This document shows positions 12,533 through 47,871 of a stretch of DNA of 64,000 bases, in pieces. Within the stretch, counting starts at the first letter, position 1, and every line of letters begins with the position of its first letter. The notes below the pieces were generated by a model, which was not told where the DNA came from, did no database searches, and saw only the letters and a list, made by a program, of their open reading frames with translations. This DNA is from a virus (lineage: Duplodnaviria > Caudoviricetes). The stretch spans positions 224,001 through 288,000 of IMG/VR virus record IMGVR_UViG_3300028591_000072; one strand, given 5' to 3'. The position numbers were made by a program, and so were the translations under genes.

Positions 12533-14038
12533 ATGGCAAGGAAAAATCAAAAATTAATAAATTATCATGGTAGTGGTAATACGCCTGATAATTTGCTATC
12601 ACAGATAGATTATGGTGAAATTGCTGTTAAGCATTCTACTGGTAATACTGCCCAGTTAATTATTAAGACTTCAGACGAAACAAGTGCTATTTTTGTTGAA
12701 AGTGCTGCTGTTGTTAGTATGATTGATTCAAGCATTTCTAGCGTTGCTGGAAATGTTGTTGAAATCGCAAAAAGTTTGTCGGCAGTAAGTTCAACGACTG
12801 TTGCGACAGAGGCTGGCTTAGAAGAACTTAAAGGCTATTATAGTGCGTTTACATCAGATGTTACTACTAACTTATCAGGCTCTGTGTCAGCACTTAGTGC
12901 TTCTGTCGTTAATAATTATTGGACTTCAGCGACAACGCAAGGAAAACTTGATGCAATAACTAGTCAAACACAGACTTTAACAACTAATTTACAAAACTTA
13001 TCAGGTGCTGTTTCAGCATTTAGTGCTACAGTTGTTGCTGATTACACGACTCATGCTGAAGCAAGCGGCATGCGTGATACTGCAATAACGAGTGCACAAA
13101 GTTACACTGATACTATTAGTGGATATATTGTAACTGATTTGCATGAGCACTATTGGACTTCAGCCACAACGCAAGAGAAACTTAATGCAATAACTAGTAA
13201 TACTGAGTCTTTAACGACTAATTTACAAAACTTATCAGGCGCTGTTTCAGCATTTAGTGCTAGTGTTGTTTCAATGAGCGCTGATGTTAAGACTTATATA
13301 GATGATAAACTTTCTGTTGTCTATAAATTCAAAGGAAGCGTTGATAATTATGCTGATTTGGCTAATATATCACAGCCTGAGAATGGAGATGTTTATAATG
13401 TTGTAAACGCAAATGGCACAATTGGTCAGCCTGGATATACGCCAGCTGGAACTAATTATGCATGGAATGAAACAGGAAGCACGTGGGATGCTCTTGGAGG
13501 CACTATTGACCTTAGTAGTTATGTGACACAAGACGAGTTAGATGGAGTTACTGGTAATGTTGAAACAATAACACAAGATTTAGGTAATTTATATACTTAT
13601 TTTAGTGGATTTAGTGGCTCTATCGTTTCCGGCTATACGACTCATGCTGAGGCAAGTGGAATGCGTGACACTGCAATAACGAGTGCGCAAAGTTATACTA
13701 ATACTGTTAGCGGTGATATTTCTAATTATTTGTATAATAATTATTGGAATTCAGCGACAACACAAGAGAACCTTAATGCAATAAATAGTCAAACAGAGAC
13801 TTTAACATCTAATTTACAAAACTTATCGGGTGCTGTTTCTGCATTTAGTGCTAACGTTGTTACTGATATAGTTCCTAAGGTTAATTCAGCTTTACAGGGC
13901 TTTGGGTTCACTGGTGATGGAGTAACTCAAGGAACCGGAAATCAAACTTTACAAAGTGGTGCAAAGGCTGATTATACAACTGGCGGTACGGCAACACTTG
14001 ACTTAACTGAATTGATTATTGATTGTGGAGATTGGTAA
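12533..14038 (+). CDS. Fibre-like virion protein with internal repeats
   Basis: N-terminal YGEIAV motif; 3x YWxSATTQxxLxAI..LQNLSGAVSAFSA and 2x YTTHAEASGMRDTAITSAQSYT; ends IDCGDW. Confidence 0.65.
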   Translation: MARKNQKLINYHGSGNTPDNLLSQIDYGEIAVKHSTGNTAQLIIKTSDETSAIFVESAAVVSMIDSSISSVAGNVVEIAKSLSAVSSTTVATEAGLEELKGYYSAFTSDVTTNLSGSVSALSASVVNNYWTSATTQGKLDAITSQTQTLTTNLQNLSGAVSAFSATVVADYTTHAEASGMRDTAITSAQSYTDTISGYIVTDLHEHYWTSATTQEKLNAITSNTESLTTNLQNLSGAVSAFSASVVSMSADVKTYIDDKLSVVYKFKGSVDNYADLANISQPENGDVYNVVNANGTIGQPGYTPAGTNYAWNETGSTWDALGGTIDLSSYVTQDELDGVTGNVETITQDLGNLYTYFSGFSGSIVSGYTTHAEASGMRDTAITSAQSYTNTVSGDISNYLYNNYWNSATTQENLNAINSQTETLTSNLQNLSGAVSAFSANVVTDIVPKVNSALQGFGFTGDGVTQGTGNQTLQSGAKADYTTGGTATLDLTELIIDCGDW

Positions 14039-14059
14039 TCAGTAAAACATATTAAAAAG

Positions 14060-14090
14060 AAAATGGGGAGCGTTTAACTCCCCATTTTTT
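14060..14090. terminator. Bidirectional intrinsic terminator
   Basis: aaaatggggag-cgtttaa-ctccccattttt between convergent genes. Confidence 0.75.
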
Positions 14091-14583
14091 ATTGTTCTTT
14101 GTTTTTTCCTTTTTTTGTCCTTAGGGCTTTTTTCCTATCTTCTTCTTCTTTTTTGTCTTGTTGAATTTTTGCCATTATTGTTGCGTTATATAGTGCTGAC
14201 TTTACTGCATCATCGTTATTAATGCAATATCCAACAGGTAACACAACTGAATTACATCCAATTATAAGTTTTTCTTTTTCAGGGTCAAAAGAAACTTGTT
14301 CCATTGAAAGTCTCAATGCCTTGTATTTATCTTCTTCACTTGCATACGAATGACCTAATTGGTCAATTCCTTCAAAGAAATCTTCATAGCATACAACAAA
14401 AACTAAATCTTCTTCTTTTGCTTTGTATTTTGTAAAATCGTTTGCTTTTACGACTTTACATACTTCTTTTGCTTTTTTAACATAAACAGGTTCAAATTTA
14501 ACCCCGTAAATATCAAGTCCTAATTTGTTTGAAATTTCATTTACCATTTCAATGGTTTCATCGGTAGCTTTACTATATTTCAT
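14089..14583 (-). CDS. Hypothetical protein
   Basis: 164-aa ORF with phage-like composition. Confidence 0.6.
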   Translation of the reverse strand: MKYSKATDETIEMVNEISNKLGLDIYGVKFEPVYVKKAKEVCKVVKANDFTKYKAKEEDLVFVVCYEDFFEGIDQLGHSYASEEDKYKALRLSMEQVSFDPEKEKLIIGCNSVVLPVGYCINNDDAVKSALYNATIMAKIQQDKKEEEDRKKALRTKKGKNKEQ

Positions 14584-38876: not shown

Positions 38877-39033
38877 GGTGCTCTGGCAGATATGGTATAT
38901 GCACTGGACTGAATACAGAGTAAACTGTAAATCAAACTCTATAGTAATTCAGTTGGTAGAAACGTGAGTCGGTGGTTCGAGTCCGCCCTATAGAGCAAAT
39001 CCAGCTAAAGTGGTTCGAGTCCACTGGGCACCA
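38877..39033 (+). tRNA. tRNA-Phe(GAA) with 84-nt anticodon-loop intron (~38914-38997) containing a nested tRNA-like domain
   Basis: Removing the insert gives CTGGA-CTGAAAA-TCCAG; acceptor GGTGCTC/GGGCACC. Confidence 0.8.
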
Positions 39034-39124
39034 CAACTAAAATAACTAAATTGGTACAGATTAAAAAATAAAATTAAACGACAATGATAAAACGAAAGTA
39101 CATAAAACGAAAACATTTAAGTAG

Positions 39125-39215: not shown

Positions 39216-39293
39216 GCGCTCGTAGCTCAGTTGGTAGATAGCACCACACTTTTAATGTGGGAGTCCTGGGTTCGAGTCCCAGCGGGCGCACCA
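39216..39293 (+). tRNA. tRNA-Lys(TTT), encoded CCA
   Basis: CCACA-CTTTTAA-TGTGG. Confidence 0.9.
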
Positions 39294-39368: not shown

Positions 39369-39429
39369 CAAAAATCTGGCACGGTTTTTGATAATGTGCA
39401 ATGGTTCTTTGAAAAAATGAAAAAAAATT

Positions 39430-39947
39430 CATTGTGCATAGGCGGGAAACCCCTATGTAGAATCTCCTAAATTCGGTGGAAATCCTTTGGTGTGCTGGTT
39501 AAACTCCAGCCTTGTAGAAATACAAGAAGAGATTTGTCTGACTAGAAAGCACTAACCAATAATGTGTAAGGACTATACCGAGCGAAAATAAGATGTAAGG
39601 GTTGAATAAACAGGTCGGCACTTTAATATGTAGAACAGAAAGAGTGAATTACATCCACAGAAACTTACTATAAACTTATAATCGTGTAGACTGAAATGGG
39701 AGATACCTAAGTTGATTTTAGCCTCATAGGAGTAATATTCGAGTAGGGAGTATAAACAGGCACTATGTCTGTCTCACTGAAAGAAGGCTATCTTGCAAGA
39801 TTTCAATATGGTAATGTCAGTTAAGACTACAACAAGCATTTAGCTCCTTGGTTCGACTCCAAGGGATGCCTGTCACGTGTTGGAAAAGGTGTCATAAGTG
39901 GGTTCCACTTGTTTGGCTATGGTAACATAGTGTGGTAAATATCAATG
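39430..39947 (+). ncRNA. Free-standing group I ribozyme-like RNA, copy 1
   Basis: P2 hairpin, P3 tctcc/ggaga, P4 ttcggt/accgag, P5 tcctt/aagga, P7 gactg/cagtt, ctatggtaacatag hairpin; no host gene visible. Confidence 0.7.
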
Positions 39948-40072: not shown

Positions 40073-40673
40073 CATTGTGCATAGGCGGGAAACCCCTATG
40101 TAGAATCTCCTAAATTCGGTGGAAATCCTTTACCTAGATATGAAAAGAAGTAGGAAAATTCATCCTAAGTTTCATTAATTTGAAATAGGTTCCGCAACAC
40201 TAACAAATAATGTGTAAGGACTATACCGAGCGAAAATGAGAATAGAATGAAAAGCAAGTACAAGCAGAAGCAATTGCCTCCTTGTAGACTTCTTTATTTC
40301 TTTATATGATACTTATTGGTGGCAATTCGTAAGTATCATTTATTCTTATAAACGTGTAGAGACTGAACGGGAGATGCCTAAGTTGGAATTATATTAAGAC
40401 GATGATAGCCCAGGATTCAAAAGAGCACCCATAATGAATGGGAGGTGGTTGGTATGAAATCCAACAATTCGTTGATAATATTACTTGCAAGAATTTCAAT
40501 ATGGTAATGTCAGTCAAGACCACAATAAATAAACATACATGTCTAATGGTGAAGACAAGCGACTTGAAAAGAAAGGCTGATGTCCGAGAGGAGACGCAAA
40601 TGTGGCATTGATGTGGGTTCGATTCCCACTATGTTTGTTCGGCTATGGTAACATAGTGTGGTAAATATCAATG
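40073..40673 (+). ncRNA. Free-standing group I ribozyme-like RNA, copy 2, with two tRNA-like inserts
   Basis: Same core as copy 1 (P7 gagactg/cagtc); tRNA-like cassettes at ~40398-40474 and ~40531-40637. Confidence 0.7.
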
Positions 40674-40686
40674 TAATTTATATATT

Positions 40687-40859
40687 ACTCCTATAGTTCA
40701 AGGGATAGAACGGAAGTTTCCTATACAAGAGTAAACTTGTTAAAATCAAAACTTCATGTTGGTGAAGATGGTCACACGTGCGTTAAAATGTCTACACGAT
40801 GGTTCGAGTCCATCACATGAAGCAAACTTCTAATCTTGGTTCGAGTCCAAGTAGGAGTA
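40687..40859 (+). tRNA. tRNA-Arg(CCT) with 101-nt anticodon-loop intron (~40723-40823) containing a nested tRNA-like domain
   Basis: Removal gives GAAGT-TTCCTAA-ACTTC; acceptor ACTCCTA/TAGGAGT. Confidence 0.82.
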
Positions 40860-40913
40860 CAAAAAAAAATAACCAGATGAAAATTCTGGCACGGTCTTTG
40901 ATAATATTGCAAT

Positions 40914-41400: not shown

Positions 41401-41522
41401 TGGGATGTGGTGTAATGGTAGCACACGTAGCACTTTATGATTTCAGACACGGAATTTTACAGCAATTATTTTAGCGATGAATTTGGGTTTCCGTGGTTTT
41501 GGTTCGATTCCAGACATCCCGA
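41401..41522 (+). tRNA. tRNA-Pro(TGG) carrying a 51-nt ACAGCAA-module insertion (41428-41478)
   Basis: Removal gives CG|GAA-TTTGGGT-TTCCG. Confidence 0.7.
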
Positions 41523-41532
41523 CTAATATGAT

Positions 41533-42292: not shown

Positions 42293-42359
42293 GAAAACCT
42301 AACAGCAATTTTTAGTAAAAAATCAGAACTTTCACTTCCGACAATAACTAATGGTTTTC
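42293..42359 (+). ncRNA. ACAGCAA-module RNA carrying a Glu(TTC)-like anticodon arm
   Basis: GAAAACC/GGTTTTC stem, TAACAGCAA, TCAGAA-CTTTCAC-TTCCGA. Confidence 0.65.
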
Positions 42360-42427
42360 GTTTTTAATAAAAGGTGACACTTTTAGGATTTTTTGCACAC
42401 CGATAGACAAGGTAAAAATCCAAGTAA

Positions 42428-42580
42428 GCCTCTTTAGTATAAAGGTTATTACACTTGACTTGTACATCAGAAGGAACTGATTAAAACCAAGCTATATTTG
42501 AAAGACAAAGCATATGCTGAAACAGCGATAGTTTCATATAGCTCAATCATGAGATGGCAGTTCGATTCTGCCAAGAGGCT
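42428..42580 (+). tRNA. tRNA-Thr(TGT) with 81-nt anticodon-loop intron (~42464-42544)
   Basis: Removal gives CTTGA-CTTGTAA-TCATG; acceptor GCCTCTT/AAGAGGC. Confidence 0.8.
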
Positions 42581-42704
42581 CTAAAATCTTCGAGGGATTG
42601 ATGCTTGGTTTAGTGTTTTGGTTACCTGACGAGGTAAACTGAGACAATAATAAGGAGTAAGAAGGAAGCATGCACTTGGCTTACTGTGTAGAAGATTTTT
42701 TAAT

Positions 42705-42776
42705 GCGTTGTTAGTACAACGGTCAGTATATGGGCTTCCCAAGCCTAAGATGTCAGTTCGATTCTGATACAGCGCT
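42705..42776 (+). tRNA. tRNA-Gly(CCC)
   Basis: TGGGC-TTCCCAA-GCCTA, U73. Confidence 0.9.
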
Positions 42777-42968
42777 CAAATACGGTGCGTAGTTTACGAT
42801 ATGGGTTTGACACGAACTGGAAGCATGGGCATCAGAGCCGTGCACGAAAGAGAATCAGGAGTGAAGCCTGACTAAACAACTATATCAAAGAATGGTACGA
42901 AGACCTGGTGACAAGAACTCACCGTTACTTGTTAAAAAAGGACCTCATCAGTAGTATCATTTAGATTT

Positions 42969-43050
42969 ACCTCAGTACCCGAACTGGTATAGGGACTACA
43001 CTTAGGATGTAGCGGCTGAGCCACTGTGGGTTCGACTCCCACCTGGGGTA
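42969..43050 (+). tRNA. tRNA-Leu(TAG)
   Basis: CTACA-CTTAGGA-TGTAG. Confidence 0.9.
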
Positions 43051-43205
43051 CAAAAATAAATGGGTGAAGCTTTGTTATTGAAGCCATGGATTTTACCGTG
43101 AGAAGACGAATGTCCGCCCAAAAACACAGAGGAACTTGCCAAATTGATACTGTACAGCTTTTGGTAATAAGGATAAGTAGACTCAGAAGGTTATATTCCT
43201 TATAT

Positions 43206-43277
43206 GCGGTGTTAGTACAACGGTTAGTATATCAGCTTGCCATGCTGAAGATGTCAGTTCGATTCTGATACACCGCT
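43206..43277 (+). tRNA. tRNA-Gly(GCC)
   Basis: TCAGC-TTGCCAT-GCTGA. Confidence 0.92.
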
Positions 43278-43279
43278 CA

Positions 43280-43366
43280 AGGAAACATGCAGCAATCTTT
43301 CTCAGGTTGAAAATTTTGACTGTAAATCAAATAAGGTGGTTCGAGTCCACAAAAATATTGTTTCCT
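43280..43366 (+). ncRNA. ACAGCAA-module variant (GCAGCAA) carrying a Tyr(GTA) anticodon arm and T-arm
   Basis: AGGAAACA/TGTTTCCT stem; TTTGA-CTGTAAA-TCAAA; GTGG-TTCGAGT-CCAC. Confidence 0.7.
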
Positions 43367-43374
43367 GTTTTTAT

Positions 43375-43448
43375 GGGAGAGTAGCGTAGCTGGTTAGCGC
43401 AACGGACTGTTAATCCGTGGGTCGTGGGTTCGATTCCCACCTCTCCCG
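43375..43448 (+). tRNA. tRNA-Asn(GTT)
   Basis: ACGGA-CTGTTAA-TCCGT. Confidence 0.92.
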
Positions 43449-43453
43449 CTTGA

Positions 43454-43585
43454 AGAAATCTAACAGCAATTAATAAATTCGTTTGACTGTAAATCAAAAG
43501 GTTGTGGGTTCGAGTCCCGCTGTCGCCAAAGATTATATTAGTTGAAGGCGACATAGCTCAATGGTAGAGAAAGAAAATGATTTCT
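43454..43585 (+). ncRNA. Circularly permuted tRNA-Tyr(GTA) closed by the ACAGCAA module
   Basis: 3' half (43480-43528) precedes 5' half (43547-43569); terminal stem AGAAATC/GATTTCT. Confidence 0.8.
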
Positions 43586-43782
43586 GAGAAAAACAATGAC
43601 GCTTAACCGTCAGAACATGTTTCTAAATTCATTAAAGATTTAGCGCACTTGTAGAGCGATAGGACTACACCTAAACCGAGGTGAGTGGTGAAGTACCGAG
43701 GAAGCTTTATTTGAAAGGTTACGAGCTCTTAAACAGATGATGGCATAGTTAAGAAGGTGCCATAAACATTTCTTTTTAATAT

Positions 43783-43855
43783 GGGGGTATGGTTGAATGG
43801 CTACAATGCGGGCTTGTCACGCCCTGTGGTGCGGGTTCGAATCCCGTTATCCCCG
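43783..43855 (+). tRNA. tRNA-Asp(GTC)
   Basis: GGGC-TTGTCAC-GCCC, G73. Confidence 0.9.
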
Positions 43856-43934
43856 CAATATTGGGGTTTCGAAAAAAAACGATAAAATTGCGTATAATTT
43901 GGCTTTCGAAACTATTTATAATAAAACAAAGTTT

Positions 43935-44654
43935 ATGTGTGATGGTTTAAATTTTAAATGTAAACAGTGTGGCGTAACATTTGAAAAAACAAAGTCTGAG
44001 TTATCAAAAAACCATAATGTTGTTCCTGTCTTTTGTTCTAAAGACTGTCAACAAAAATGGTATAAAGAAAATTCGTATATAACTGTAGAATGCAAATGTT
44101 GTGGAAAAGAATTTACAATAAAAAAAGGTGAATACAATAAAAATAAAAACAAAAACTTTTTTTGTTCACATTCTTGTGCTGCTAAATTTAATAATAAAAC
44201 TAGAACAATAAAAAAAACTGTTTTTGAAAAAGATAACAAAATTAAAATATCTAAAAAGAAAGAAGATATATATGGTGTATGTCCAATTTGCGGAAATAAA
44301 AAATTTAAGAAATCAATATTGTGCAAAAAATGTAGAAACGAGCAAAAAAGAAATAACATAAAAAAGAGAACACTTGGATATTTTATTGAAGGAAAAAAAT
44401 ATTTGGGTTCAAAATGTAATGAAATAAGAAAAGACGCAAAGAGAACAATTGAAGAAAGCTGTGTCGAAAAAACTTGTGCATATTGTCATAACCACGAGTT
44501 TGATGGCATATTAGAAGTACATCATATAAAAGGAATTTTGGAGTTTGATAAAAGCACGACAATAGAAGAAATAAATGATATTAATAACCTTGTTTGGTTA
44601 TGTCCAAATCATCACAGGATGCTTGAACTTGGATTAATTAAACTTGAAAAATAG
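43935..44654 (+). CDS. HNH endonuclease with Cys-rich N-terminal repeats
   Basis: CxxC..FCSxxC repeats; EVHHIK..NLVWLCPNHH; start moved to Met47 because the listed start overlaps tRNA-Asp. Confidence 0.85.
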   Translation: MCDGLNFKCKQCGVTFEKTKSELSKNHNVVPVFCSKDCQQKWYKENSYITVECKCCGKEFTIKKGEYNKNKNKNFFCSHSCAAKFNNKTRTIKKTVFEKDNKIKISKKKEDIYGVCPICGNKKFKKSILCKKCRNEQKRNNIKKRTLGYFIEGKKYLGSKCNEIRKDAKRTIEESCVEKTCAYCHNHEFDGILEVHHIKGILEFDKSTTIEEINDINNLVWLCPNHHRMLELGLIKLEK

Positions 44655-44660
44655 ATTAAA

Positions 44661-44789
44661 AGGAATTTAACAGCAAGTTACAATAGGTAAACACATTTGT
44701 AAACAAAACAAAGATTGTTGGTTCGAGTCCAACTGCGGCTTTAGGGGAACCGATGGCTGCATAGTGAAATGGAAGATAAATAGATTCCT
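44661..44789 (+). ncRNA. Circularly permuted Cys-like tRNA (ACA loop) closed by the ACAGCAA module
   Basis: AGGAATT/GATTCCT stem; TGCGGCT-T precedes GGCTGCA; break in the D-loop. Confidence 0.7.
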
Positions 44790-44919
44790 GTAATCTAAAA
44801 AATATAAGGAAAGAAGGACACACGTACCTTAAACAAGTACGAAAAGTTAGTGCTGGCCACATAAAGTCGCCAAGCGTCTCAGGGTGGATGCACGATAGTG
44901 AAATGTAAATTTCTTAGAT

Positions 44920-44992
44920 GGGGAGTTCATTTAGCGGTTTAGGATGCAGGTTCGACAGACCTGTCACTATGGTTCGATTCCATAACACCCCA
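44920..44992 (+). tRNA. Atypical tRNA, GAC anticodon (Val?) with C33
   Basis: CAGGT-TCGACAG-ACCTG; one A-A mismatch in the acceptor. Confidence 0.6.
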
Positions 44993-44997
44993 CAATC

Positions 44998-45225
44998 GGT
45001 TTGTTGTTGATAATCAAAGGAAAGTTGAGTTGGACATGGGTTCGAGTCCCATATGGTCCACTAAGTAATTGATTTTCAAGTAAATACGGGCCATCTTGGT
45101 TTTGACAGCTAATGAGTACAATGGAAGTAGACATCCGAGATGCCATAAAATAACTGGCAACGAAAATTATGCTTATGCTTATGCAGCAGCCTAAGGCAGT
45201 GCATTGAGCAGGTTGGCAGCGAACC
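44998..45225 (+). ncRNA. ssrA: Permuted (two-piece) tmRNA
   Basis: T-arm and ATGGTCC-A (to 45060) precede GGGCCAT-CTTGGTTTTGAC (45088); G3-U70 pair; tag GNENYAYAYAAA* at 45156-45194 after ATAACT. Confidence 0.9.
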
Positions 45226-45239
45226 AAATCGCTGCACAT

Positions 45240-45315
45240 GGTCGGTTCGTCTAGTCTGGCCTAGGACATCAGGTTTTCATCCTGGGAATCATGGGTTCAA
45301 ATCCCATACCGACTA
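45240..45315 (+). tRNA. tRNA-Glu(TTC)
   Basis: TCAGG-TTTTCAT-CCTGG. Confidence 0.9.
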
Positions 45316-45527
45316 CATCCAGATAACTACAAATCTGCATTGGCAAAGTTGCTTTCCATAACAATGTGCAACCAGTTTCAGCGTTTCAACTGTAAAAATG
45401 CGAGATTTTTATTTGTTTGGCTAAACGAAAACAAATCCTTATAGTTGGTATATTGGTAAAAAAGGCGGAATGGTAGATAACCGTTTTTATCCAACATTTA
45501 TGGCGATTCATGATGTAGCCATAAAAT

Positions 45528-45601
45528 CGGCCTGTAGCTCAGTTGGTTAGAGCATCACACTGATAATGTGGGGGTCGGTGGTTCGAGTCCACCCTGGCCG
45601 A
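45528..45601 (+). tRNA. tRNA-Ile(GAT)
   Basis: TCACA-CTGATAA-TGTGG. Confidence 0.9.
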
Positions 45602-45797
45602 CAAAATTTACAAATTTATTTGTTCTTTTAAAAAATAGTTTGTATATTTAAAATAAAGAAAGTAAAAATCCCACCAAGGGCGAAACAATTGGTGGTTAGT
45701 TCTATCCCGTTAGTAATCACGGTCACAAGGTAGGAGATAAAGAACTGTAAGAGGCTCAGAAGTCGGATGACAAGAAACGATAGTTCACTTTCTAAAT

Positions 45798-45871
45798 GGG
45801 CCCATGCCTTCAATTGGTACAGGACCGCCTTTGCACGGCGACATTTATCGGTTCGAATCCGATTGGGTCCA
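45798..45871 (+). tRNA. tRNA-Ala(TGC)
   Basis: CGCC-TTTGCAC-GGCG, G3-U70. Confidence 0.88.
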
Positions 45872-46042
45872 CATCTTTATTATTATTATAATATGAAGAT
45901 GGTAGCGCCACAACGTAACGTAATTGGTCCCTGATGTTCTTCAAACCAATTCCCTATCGTAGTTAGGGTAAAGTCTTTACACGAGTTTCTATAATACGAA
46001 AGCCAAAATGTACAGTTTATGTCGGAAGAAACTCTTTATAAT

Positions 46043-46167
46043 GCCAAGGTAGCTCAGTGGTTTAGAGCAATGGGAGTGTATAAATGATTTTTGATTAAAA
46101 ATCTAACAGCAACTTCCAAATACCTATGTAAACCCATTGGTCGGAGGTTCGAATCCTTCTCTTGGCT
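46043..46167 (+). tRNA. tRNA (GTA or TGT depending on junction) with a 51-nt ACAGCAA-module insertion (~46075-46125)
   Basis: GCCAAGG/TCTTGGC acceptor, ATGGG/CCCAT anticodon stem; insert contains GATTTTT-GATT-AAAAATC-TAACAGCAA. Confidence 0.7.
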
Positions 46168-46175
46168 CAAAAAAT

Positions 46176-46252
46176 GCATGTATGAAAGCAGACGGGATGT
46201 GCTTCTGTCGTAATTCGGACAGGATATGTTGGTTCGAATCCAACTGCATGCG
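46176..46252 (+). ncRNA. Atypical tRNA-like RNA with 8-nt anticodon loop
   Basis: GCATGTA/TGCATGC; CTGTC-GTAATTCG-GACAG; GTTGG-TTCGAAT-CCAAC. Confidence 0.55.
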
Positions 46253-46257
46253 CAATA

Positions 46258-46331
46258 GGAAAACATACAGCAAGTTTTATCAAATTCAAGTTACAATCTT
46301 TTAAATTGTGGGACTAAATTTTTTGTTTTCC
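46258..46331 (+). ncRNA. ACAGCAA-module RNA carrying a Lys(TTT) anticodon arm
   Basis: GGAAAACA/TGTTTTCC stem, TACAGCAA, ACAAT-CTTTTAA-ATTGT. Confidence 0.7.
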
Positions 46332-47138: not shown

Positions 47139-47196
47139 CGCTAATTTCGACTTTACTTTTTCACCCTTTTTACTATTTATGTATAAAAGTGGTTTT

Positions 47197-47871
47197 ATGA
47201 AAGAAAAAGAAATAGATAAAATAAGCGTGGAACAAATAAACGAAGCTTTTGAAAAGTGTGGTAATCTTAAAGAAGTTGTTTTTTATTTTGGAAAAAAATA
47301 CAATGGCGGAAGTCAACGATTTGTATATGCTTTAATGGAAAAAGCCGGAATAAAGTATTCTGATTTTTTCAAAAAAGGGAAAGAGTATTATAAAAAAAAT
47401 GTAAAGTATTGTGAAAATTGTGGAAAAGAATTGCCATATGAAAAAAGGAATAATAAATTTTGTTCTTCTTCTTGTGCAGCATCTAAAAACAATCTTGGGG
47501 TAAGAAGAAACTTTAATCCAAATAAACCAATAATACAAACAAAAGAAGAAAAAGAAAGACTGAAGTTGGAAAGATGGAAGAATGGAGAAAATTTTTTAGT
47601 TGGCTCTTGTGAAATACCAGTTTTTATAAGAAGATATTTGTTCAGTAAAAACGAATGTAAATGTGAGCGATGTGGGTGGGGTGAAATAAATGAGGACACA
47701 GGAAAAATTCCGTTGCAAATACATCACATAGATGGTGATTGCACAAACAACAAAGAAGAAAATTTACAACTACTTTGTCCAAATTGTCATAGTTTGACTA
47801 ACACATTTGGTTCGTTGAACAAAAAGTCAAAAAGATTCCATAGAAAAAAGAAAACTTTAAAAGATATATAG
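47197..47871 (+). CDS. HNH endonuclease
   Basis: CERCG..LQIHHIDGD..NN...NLQLLCPNCH. Confidence 0.9.
   Translation: MKEKEIDKISVEQINEAFEKCGNLKEVVFYFGKKYNGGSQRFVYALMEKAGIKYSDFFKKGKEYYKKNVKYCENCGKELPYEKRNNKFCSSSCAASKNNLGVRRNFNPNKPIIQTKEEKERLKLERWKNGENFLVGSCEIPVFIRRYLFSKNECKCERCGWGEINEDTGKIPLQIHHIDGDCTNNKEENLQLLCPNCHSLTNTFGSLNKKSKRFHRKKKTLKDI

What the first reader, a model, noticed from the sequence alone, without database searches (positions are those of the whole stretch)
42293..46331. Mini-RNAs presenting isolated Glu(UUC), Tyr(GUA) and Lys(UUU) anticodon arms: possible decoys for anticodon nucleases
Seen: three ACAGCAA modules enclose only tRNA fragments with canonical 7-nt loops: CTTTCAC (42329-42335), CTGTAAA plus T-arm (43320-43326), and CTTTTAA (46298-46304). 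They have no acceptor end, so they cannot decode. Intact Glu, Tyr, Lys, Pro and Cys tRNAs lie nearby, so these module payloads are redundant for translation. Established: PrrC and PARIS AriB cut tRNA-Lys, RloC cuts wobble-U tRNAs including Glu, and the PtuAB effector of retron Ec78 degrades tRNA-Tyr. Inference: RNA decoys or inhibitors of tRNA-targeting anti-phage defence, or baits for modification enzymes.
Basis: inference. Interest (0 to 1): 0.85.

Follow-up and report, generated by a model that had tools for sequence, protein, structure and literature searches.

The report
Phage Y-like RNAs carrying anticodon arms
Three 67-87-base RNA genes hidden among a giant rumen phage's tRNA genes each join a shared "handle" (probably the docking site of a Ro60-like ring protein) to a faithful copy of a tRNA anticodon loop; they most likely engage tRNA-cutting defence enzymes as bait or tripwire, but this is untested.

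Summary
Observation confirmed, with corrections: the Tyr module's box is GCAGCAA and it also has a D-arm-like hairpin; the Glu stem has an A-C mismatch; the Tyr and Lys arms are not the lowest-energy fold of naked RNA. The three are the smallest of seven clamp+ACAGCAA RNAs in this 302-kb phage's tRNA array. Across 240 loci of the DUF2828 gene, such handles lie on the gene's strand (276 vs 5), and 43 of 195 payloads carry a perfect anticodon arm (shuffles 2.9). The loops obey tRNA rules (A34 avoided; G37 only after G36), favour Lys-UUU (12/44 vs 4% expected) and sit on weak A/U stems. Orthologous slots swap anticodon (Tyr/Gly/Ser/Phe; Lys/Asn). A complete relative encodes a DUF2828 protein whose model matches Ro60, next to an RNA ligase; the gene is not in this 82%-complete contig. 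Best reading: Y-like RNAs of a Ro60-like particle whose arm engages anticodon nucleases (0.45). Free decoys for PrrC/PARIS/Ec78 specifically are poorly supported. No paper found on the family; this scan has reported it repeatedly on other phages.

The parts
42293..42359 (+). Module A: 7-bp clamp (42293-42299 with 42353-42359), box 42302-42308, lower stem, Glu(UUC) anticodon arm 42323-42341 (loop 42329-42335)
   Evidence: four orthologues vary in the loop only at positions 32 and 38 and show one A-U to G-C change in the arm
43280..43366 (+). Module B: 8-bp clamp, box GCAGCAA 43289-43295, D-arm-like hairpin 43298-43312, Tyr(GUA) arm 43315-43331, T-arm 43336-43350; a tRNA body with the clamp in place of the acceptor stem
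   Evidence: same slot carries Tyr, Gly(UCC), Ser(UGA) or Phe(GAA) arms in six relatives
46258..46331 (+). Module C: 8-bp clamp, box 46267-46273, Lys(UUU) arm 46292-46310 (loop 46298-46304)
   Evidence: arm invariant in two relatives, Asn(GUU) in the same slot of a third, Lys on a different stem in the complete relative G008
43454..43585 (+). Family member: clamp+box closing a circularly permuted tRNA-Tyr (anticodon arm, T-arm, closed acceptor helix, D-arm); its anticodon arm is identical to that of module B
   Evidence: weak Rfam YrlA match 26.8 bits, gathering 69, E 0.013
44661..44789 (+). Family member: clamp+box closing a YrlA-order payload (T-arm, closed acceptor helix, D-arm-like)
   Evidence: conserved in L011, L012, G010
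46043..46168 (+). Family member: Tyr-like tRNA body with the handle inserted in the anticodon loop, clamp strands in reversed order (46086-46092 with 46097-46103, box 46106-46112)
   Evidence: orthologue in L012
41401..41523 (+). Family member: tRNA body with the handle (41448-41495, box 41459-41465) in the anticodon-arm position
   Evidence: orthologues in L006, L007, L012
38583..38667 (+). Intact tRNA-Tyr(GUA) (context: makes module B redundant for decoding)
39216..39293 (+). Intact tRNA-Lys(UUU) (context)
45240..45316 (+). Intact tRNA-Glu(UUC) (context)

Best explanation
The three elements are small RNA genes of a Y-RNA-like family, co-transcribed with the tRNA array and released by processing (inferred). 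The constant part, a 7-8 bp clamp joining the 5' and 3' ends plus the single-stranded RCAGCAA box, is the docking site for a DUF2828/DUF7788 Ro60-like ring protein (genetic link shown, binding inferred). The variable part displays a wild-type anticodon loop on a weak A/U stem (shown as selected sequence). The loop is there to be recognised by anticodon-loop endonucleases of the host's defence (inferred): the protein-held RNA is either a bait that occupies the nuclease and is recycled by RNA repair enzymes, or a tripwire whose cutting opens the weak stem and frees or ungates the ring for handling damaged tRNAs. I rate the two sub-modes about equally; the phage keeps several versions, and swaps anticodons, to match the nucleases its hosts carry.
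For: Handle: 276 non-coding copies on the DUF2828 strand versus 5 on the other; Bas63 has them right behind gp130, a Ro60-like counter-defence protein (10.1101/2024.10.10.617714). Complete relative G008 (collinear core) encodes a DUF2828/DUF7788 protein whose model (pLDDT 88) has Ro60/Rsr structures as its 13 best Foldseek hits, adjacent to an RNA-ligase-type gene, and carries a Lys module. Common neighbours of the gene: RtcB (16 of 161 groups), WYL proteins, SPFH, RNA ligases, kinase, CCA enzyme. Arm: 43/195 vs 2.9 shuffled; 7-nt loops in excess, A34 3/44, 29/44 identical to the commonest loop of the cognate tRNA, stems 20% vs 58% G+C; G37 in all 6 loops with G36 and none of the other 38; Lys-UUU 27% vs 3.6% of intact tRNAs and 4% of shuffle-made arms. 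Slot-wise anticodon swaps. Holding the box unpaired favours the arm. Cas13b6 cuts isolated anticodon stem-loops after U (PMC13692257); a competitive-inhibitor role was proposed for YrlA (PMC7790460).
Against: No DUF2828, TROVE or RtcB gene in this contig or four incomplete relatives; the region where G008 has it is partly missing here, so this is open. No binding, cleavage or abundance data. Wild-type loops should be cut, and a catalytic nuclease is hard to titrate against the host tRNA pool. The list of tRNAs cut by known nucleases is broad, so overlap is weak evidence; Thr-UGU, a prime AriB target, is absent. gp130 countered Ppl without its RNAs. Several arms are minor folds without protein. 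Ligase genes are only modestly commoner at viral loci with arms (9/30 vs 8/65) and not at genome loci. Surveyed loci are not phylogenetically independent.
Confidence: 0.45

Rival explanations
1. Ro60-like partner RNAs whose anticodon arm tethers a non-nuclease tRNA reader (RNA ligase or exonuclease, a modification enzyme, a synthetase, or the ribosomal decoding site), as Y RNA tethers Rsr to PNPase.
For: Same handle and protein evidence; the family also carries D/T elbows and permuted tRNAs without anticodon loops; phiRo60 with its RNAs recruits PNPase (PMC12135203); only 34 of 145 short payloads have a strict arm.
Against: No single modification enzyme or synthetase reads Lys, Asn, Gln, Ser, Tyr, Cys, Gly and Phe loops alike (own knowledge; seryl-tRNA synthetase ignores the anticodon); a tether to one constant partner would not be expected to swap anticodon in an orthologous slot.
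Confidence: 0.25
2. Free-standing RNA decoys or inhibitors of PrrC, RloC, PARIS or Ec78 that act without a protein partner; the clamp only protects the ends.
For: Anticodon bias and swapping; no partner gene found in this contig; phage tRNAs were suggested to compete for AriB (PMC12409363).
Against: A sequence-conserved single-stranded box tied to one protein family across unrelated phages implies a binding partner; Tyr and Lys arms are minor folds when naked; AriB needs contacts outside the arm (PMC12409363); Ec78 rescue needed intact stem-loops (PMC11555353).
Confidence: 0.12
3. Decaying tRNA fragments captured inside a handle; the loop is inherited filler with no present function.
For: Module B's arm is identical to that of the permuted tRNA-Tyr 170 bases away; tRNA rules such as G37 after G36 would also be inherited; covariation in the Glu slot is a single pair and not beyond shuffles.
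Against: Stems are unlike tRNA stems (20% vs 58% G+C) yet perfectly paired while loops stay canonical; swaps replace one valid loop by another; strong bias to Lys-UUU over the 68 Met and 43 Ser-GCU tRNAs available in the same loci.
Confidence: 0.1
4. Cis-acting signals for processing or autoregulation of the tRNA transcript, not independent RNAs.
For: In many loci handles lie directly upstream of the DUF2828 gene; handles also interrupt tRNA bodies here.
Against: In G008 the handles are more than 20 kb from the gene and none is adjacent; 5' and 3' ends are clamped as in stable small RNAs; no need for anticodon identity.
Confidence: 0.08

Closest known systems
Bacterial and phage Y RNAs (YrlA/YrlB, Yrn1) with Rsr/Ro60 (Rfam RF02553; PMC4201824; Salmonella rsr-yrlBA-rtcBA operon, PMC7790460; Thermus phage phiRo60 with Yrl1/2, PMC12135203)
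   Same: End-joining stem plus a conserved unpaired motif as likely protein handle, tRNA-like variable domain, link to a HEAT+vWA ring protein and RNA repair genes; module B has the Yrn1-type order (D, anticodon, T arm), the 43454 and 44661 members the YrlA order.
   Different: Box is RCAGCAA, not the GNCGAA/CGAA motif; partner is DUF2828/DUF7788 (12-15% identical to Ro60 structures), not Pfam TROVE; payload is a true 7-nt anticodon loop, which YrlA lacks and Yrn1 has only as a 6-nt loop.
Bas63 gp130 (Felixounavirus), counter to Ppl (10.1101/2024.10.10.617714)
   Same: Same protein family (27% identity, E 4e-34 to the G008 protein); the same handles lie behind it; the authors guessed that some nearby tRNA genes are Y RNAs.
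   Different: The paper identifies no RNA, handle or anticodon mimic; gp130 acted without its RNAs.
Phage tRNAs that counter anticodon nucleases (T5 tRNA-Lys vs PARIS, PMC11464382, PMC12409363; tRNA-Tyr vs retron Eco7/Ec78 and tRNA-Lys vs PrrC, PMC11555353)
   Same: Same anticodon classes (Lys-UUU, Asn-GUU, Tyr-GUA), same genomic setting.
   Different: Those are complete, chargeable tRNAs that resist cleavage or resupply translation; these cannot be charged and keep cleavable-type loops.
Dictyostelid Class I RNAs (PMC7919456)
   Same: About 60 nt, short stem joining the ends, conserved 11-nt unpaired motif next to the 5' strand (ending C-A-A), variable remainder.
   Different: Eukaryotic, with own promoter element; no anticodon mimicry or Ro60 link reported; homology not tested here.

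Membership tests
Y RNA (YrlA/Yrn1 type) | 5' and 3' ends paired in a terminal stem | tested here: met
   7-8 bp clamps with pair probability 0.72-1.0
Y RNA (YrlA/Yrn1 type) | GNCGAA(N)G / CGAA Ro-binding motif | tested here: not met
   No CGAA in any of the three modules
Y RNA (YrlA/Yrn1 type) | Match to Rfam YrlA at gathering score | tested here: not met
   No match for the three modules; 26.8 of 69 bits for the 43454 member
Y RNA (YrlA/Yrn1 type) | tRNA-like domain (D and T arms) | tested here: inconclusive
   Present in module B (T-arm clear, D-arm-like), absent in A and C
Y RNA (YrlA/Yrn1 type) | Ro60 orthologue encoded in the same genome | tested here: inconclusive
   None in this 82% contig; Ro60-fold DUF2828 gene in the complete relative G008, in an arm partly missing here
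Y RNA (YrlA/Yrn1 type) | Binds the Ro60 protein | not testable with these tools
   Needs binding assays
tRNA gene | Acceptor stem with a free 3' end | tested here: not met
   No acceptor helix or CCA; not called by ARAGORN or Rfam
tRNA gene | 7-nt loop with Y32, U33, purine 37 | tested here: met
   All three loops; family-wide enrichment
Anticodon-nuclease decoy / RNA anti-defence | Non-random loops matching nuclease-targeted tRNAs | tested here: met
   Lys-UUU 12/44, s2U/Q class 23/44; overlap with published targets is partial (Thr-UGU absent)
Anticodon-nuclease decoy / RNA anti-defence | Abundant as a discrete RNA during infection | tested here: inconclusive
   Only assembled contigs of long-RNA libraries were available
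Anticodon-nuclease decoy / RNA anti-defence | Binds or inhibits the nuclease and protects the phage | not testable with these tools
   Needs expression and plating assays
Dictyostelid Class I RNA | Stem plus 11-nt motif scoring on the Class I model | tested here: inconclusive
   Architecture alike; no such Rfam hit reported up to E 10; motif not compared letter by letter

The most novel reading that the evidence does not exclude
A widespread phage ribonucleoprotein anti-defence: a Ro60-like ring loaded with interchangeable mini-RNAs, each showing one anticodon loop, that traps or senses host anticodon nucleases (including U-specific Cas13 of Bacteroidota), with the anticodon repertoire re-tuned by swapping loops.
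Probability: 0.35. Interest if true: 0.88.

Novelty: new variant of a known kind. Interest (0 to 1): 0.62.

Why it matters
tRNA cutting is a common end point of bacterial immunity, and the only described RNA counter is resupplying whole tRNAs. If these 60-90 nt RNAs act on the nucleases, they are a new RNA-based counter-defence, they give bacterial-type Ro60/Y RNA particles a concrete job, and their anticodon table is a map of which tRNAs are attacked in gut and rumen hosts (Lys-UUU first, then Asn, Gln, Ser, Cys, Tyr, Glu), including by nucleases not yet described. The same handles stand behind gp130 in Bas63, so the idea can be tested in E. coli.

Tried and rejected
TROVE, DUF2828, DUF7788 and RtcB searches of the own contig, a profile search of six frames, and searches with Bas63 gp130 and the G008 protein found nothing; not taken as absence because about 18% is missing and the DUF controls did not ring. 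An attempt to walk into the missing arm failed: the only other long assembly ends earlier. RNA runs: a sheep-gut RNA library holds the array, but contigs cover modules and an HNH gene at similar low depth and cannot show ends or levels of small RNAs: no evidence either way. Promoter/terminator scans gave nothing beyond shuffles near the modules. Pair counting in the Glu slot has too few sequences. Host-type versus phage-type Glu arm compared in only two Bacteroidales genomes: module keeps the host A31-U39 pair while the intact phage tRNA has G31-C39, too thin to use. A/U richness as the cause of the Lys bias was rejected. A single modification enzyme as target was rejected on the repertoire. 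Literature searches for the box with tRNA/phage, for DUF2828 and for anticodon-arm decoys found no description. Sequence search of PDB with the G008 protein found nothing; the Ro60 link rests on the fold search.
Full report
Setting. The window is part of a 302,581-base virus contig, estimated 82% complete. Positions 38.2-48.2 kb hold 25 tRNA calls and a permuted tmRNA. A sheep-gut RNA library holds the array; the tmRNA tag begins with G as in Bacteroidota (own knowledge), so a rumen Bacteroidales host is likely but not shown.

Observation. None has an acceptor end. Corrections: the middle unit has GCAGCAA and a D-arm-like hairpin before the anticodon arm, so it is a tRNA body with the clamp in place of the acceptor stem; the Glu arm has an A-C mismatch; in naked-RNA folding the Tyr and Lys arms have probability 0.03, rising to 0.41 and 0.15 when the box is kept unpaired. 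In the Tyr unit the competing fold pairs the box itself with the arm, so a protein on the box would favour the arm.

The family in this genome. Four more units in the array share the handle: a permuted tRNA-Tyr (43454-43585), a YrlA-order mimic (44661-44789) and two tRNA bodies with the handle in the anticodon arm (41401-41523, 46043-46168); one or two more lie in a second tRNA cluster. The finding is thus about the payload of one RNA family. Rfam has no model for it; the permuted Tyr unit scores 26.8 of 69 bits on YrlA.

Orthologues. In related rumen phages the Glu unit keeps U33-UUC-A37, varies in the loop only at 32 and 38, and shows one A-U to G-C change (too few rows for significance). 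The Lys arm is unchanged in two relatives, but the same slot holds Asn(GUU) in a third. The D+anticodon+T slot holds Tyr(GUA) twice, Gly(UCC) twice, Ser(UGA) once and Phe(GAA) twice, with stems rewritten each time. One relative has an extra Cys(GCA) unit. The shape is kept; the identity is exchanged among valid anticodons.

Family-wide test. Earlier notes of this scan pointed to DUF2828 as partner; I tested this on 240 loci fetched by that gene plus the orthologue loci. Non-coding clamp+box units number 276 on the sense strand and 5 on the other. Of 195 non-redundant payloads up to 140 nt, 43 have a perfect 5-bp hairpin with a Y-U-NNN-R-H loop, against 2.9 in shuffles, maximum 8. Seven-base loops are in excess (100 vs 36-61 for other sizes), A34 is avoided (3/44 where A is 38% of bases), 29/44 loops equal the commonest loop of the cognate tRNA, and stems are 20% G+C against 58% in 787 intact tRNAs. 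G37 occurs in all six loops with G36 and in none of the other 38, the rule of real tRNAs. Lys-UUU makes 12/44, against 28/787 intact tRNAs and 4% of shuffle-made arms; the thiouridine/queuosine class makes 23/44 against 22% and 12%. Loops of equal composition (Ile-UAU, Leu-UAA) or nearly so (Thr-UGU, Arg-UCU, Val-UAC, Ile-GAU) are absent. Caveats: loci are related by descent, de-duplication was by shared 12-mers, and only about a quarter of short payloads have such an arm, so the P-values are optimistic.

The partner. No Ro60-like gene is in this contig. A complete 361-kb relative, collinear over the core, has a 534-residue DUF2828/DUF7788 gene beside an RNA-ligase-type gene, at the start of a variable arm that is partly missing from our contig; it also has a Lys unit more than 20 kb away. 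Its model (pLDDT 88) has Rsr, phage phiRo60 and animal Ro60 as the 13 best structural hits, and it is 27% identical to Bas63 gp130, a published Ro60-like counter to the Ppl defence whose authors guessed at Y RNAs nearby. Another phage with the same HD-AAA-DnaK block carries the gene beside it. Frequent neighbours of the gene are RtcB, WYL proteins, SPFH, RNA ligases, a kinase and a CCA enzyme; our contig has RlaP and CCA-type nucleotidyltransferases.

Mechanism. Shown: a conserved handle tied to a Ro60-fold gene family; selected, tRNA-faithful loops on weak stems; a biased and swappable repertoire. A reader that cares for the loop but not the stem, differs between hosts and favours U-rich Lys, Asn, Gln, Glu and Tyr loops is best matched by anticodon-loop endonucleases; Cas13b6 cuts isolated arms after U, and an inhibitor role was once proposed for YrlA. 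Because wild-type loops should be cut, a plain sponge is unconvincing; a protein-held bait recycled by ligase, or a tripwire that ungates the ring when cut, fits better. I give this 0.45, a tether for a housekeeping tRNA reader 0.25, free decoys 0.12, filler 0.10, cis signals 0.08.

Known or new. It works like a Y RNA but fails the defining motif and Rfam tests, so it is not filed as YrlA. I found no paper on the handle or on displayed anticodon arms. This scan has reported the family, and the anticodon-arm payload, several times on other phages; those notes are leads, not support. Verdict: real feature, new variant of a known kind, interest 0.62.

Noticed in passing
window 38877-39034, 40687-40860, 42428-42581: tRNA-Phe(GAA), -Arg(CCU) and -Thr(UGU) genes are interrupted just 3' of the anticodon by a short hairpin, an A-rich linker and a nested tRNA-like unit; relatives L007, L011 and L012 have an uninterrupted Thr, and L012 uninterrupted Phe and Arg genes, so the inserts are polymorphic. 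Possibly a new kind of tRNA intron.
   Followed up: partly
window 39420-39860 and 40075-40680: Two long duplicated-block elements resembling group I intron cores that interrupt no obvious gene; contigs of four rumen RNA runs pile on them at depths hundreds of times the flanks, with many variant loops (summed over organisms). No Rfam hit at gathering score.
   Followed up: no
window 44971-45285: Two-piece (permuted) tmRNA, Rfam RF04321, with a Bacteroidota-like tag; conserved in relatives.
   Followed up: partly
window 43797-44654, 47179-47871: HNH endonuclease genes inserted in the tRNA array; a relative has a different HNH-like gene at another position.
   Followed up: no
G000 contig 18455 and 18070, minus strand (outside the window; L276): One clear and one doubtful clamp+ACAGCAA unit in a second tRNA cluster, without an anticodon arm.
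   Followed up: partly
L277:5275-6486 and 13039-14352, minus strand (contig 293-302 kb): RlaP-family RNA-repair nucleotidyltransferase and a CCA-adding-type enzyme encoded by this phage.
   Followed up: partly
L272 5463-5533; L275 2229-2555; L012 1637-1708: ARAGORN calls tRNAs with stop anticodons (UUA; CUA) in related phages; not checked whether real suppressors or mis-called tRNA-like units.
   Followed up: no
window 46176-46253: An uncalled tRNA-like unit with an unusual anticodon region just upstream of module C; weak tRNA-Sec score.
   Followed up: no
L134, L150, L155, L160, L167, L172: In Clostridia genome contigs the DUF2828 gene and handle RNAs sit with RtcB and one or two WYL-type genes, like a host RNA-repair operon.
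   Followed up: partly
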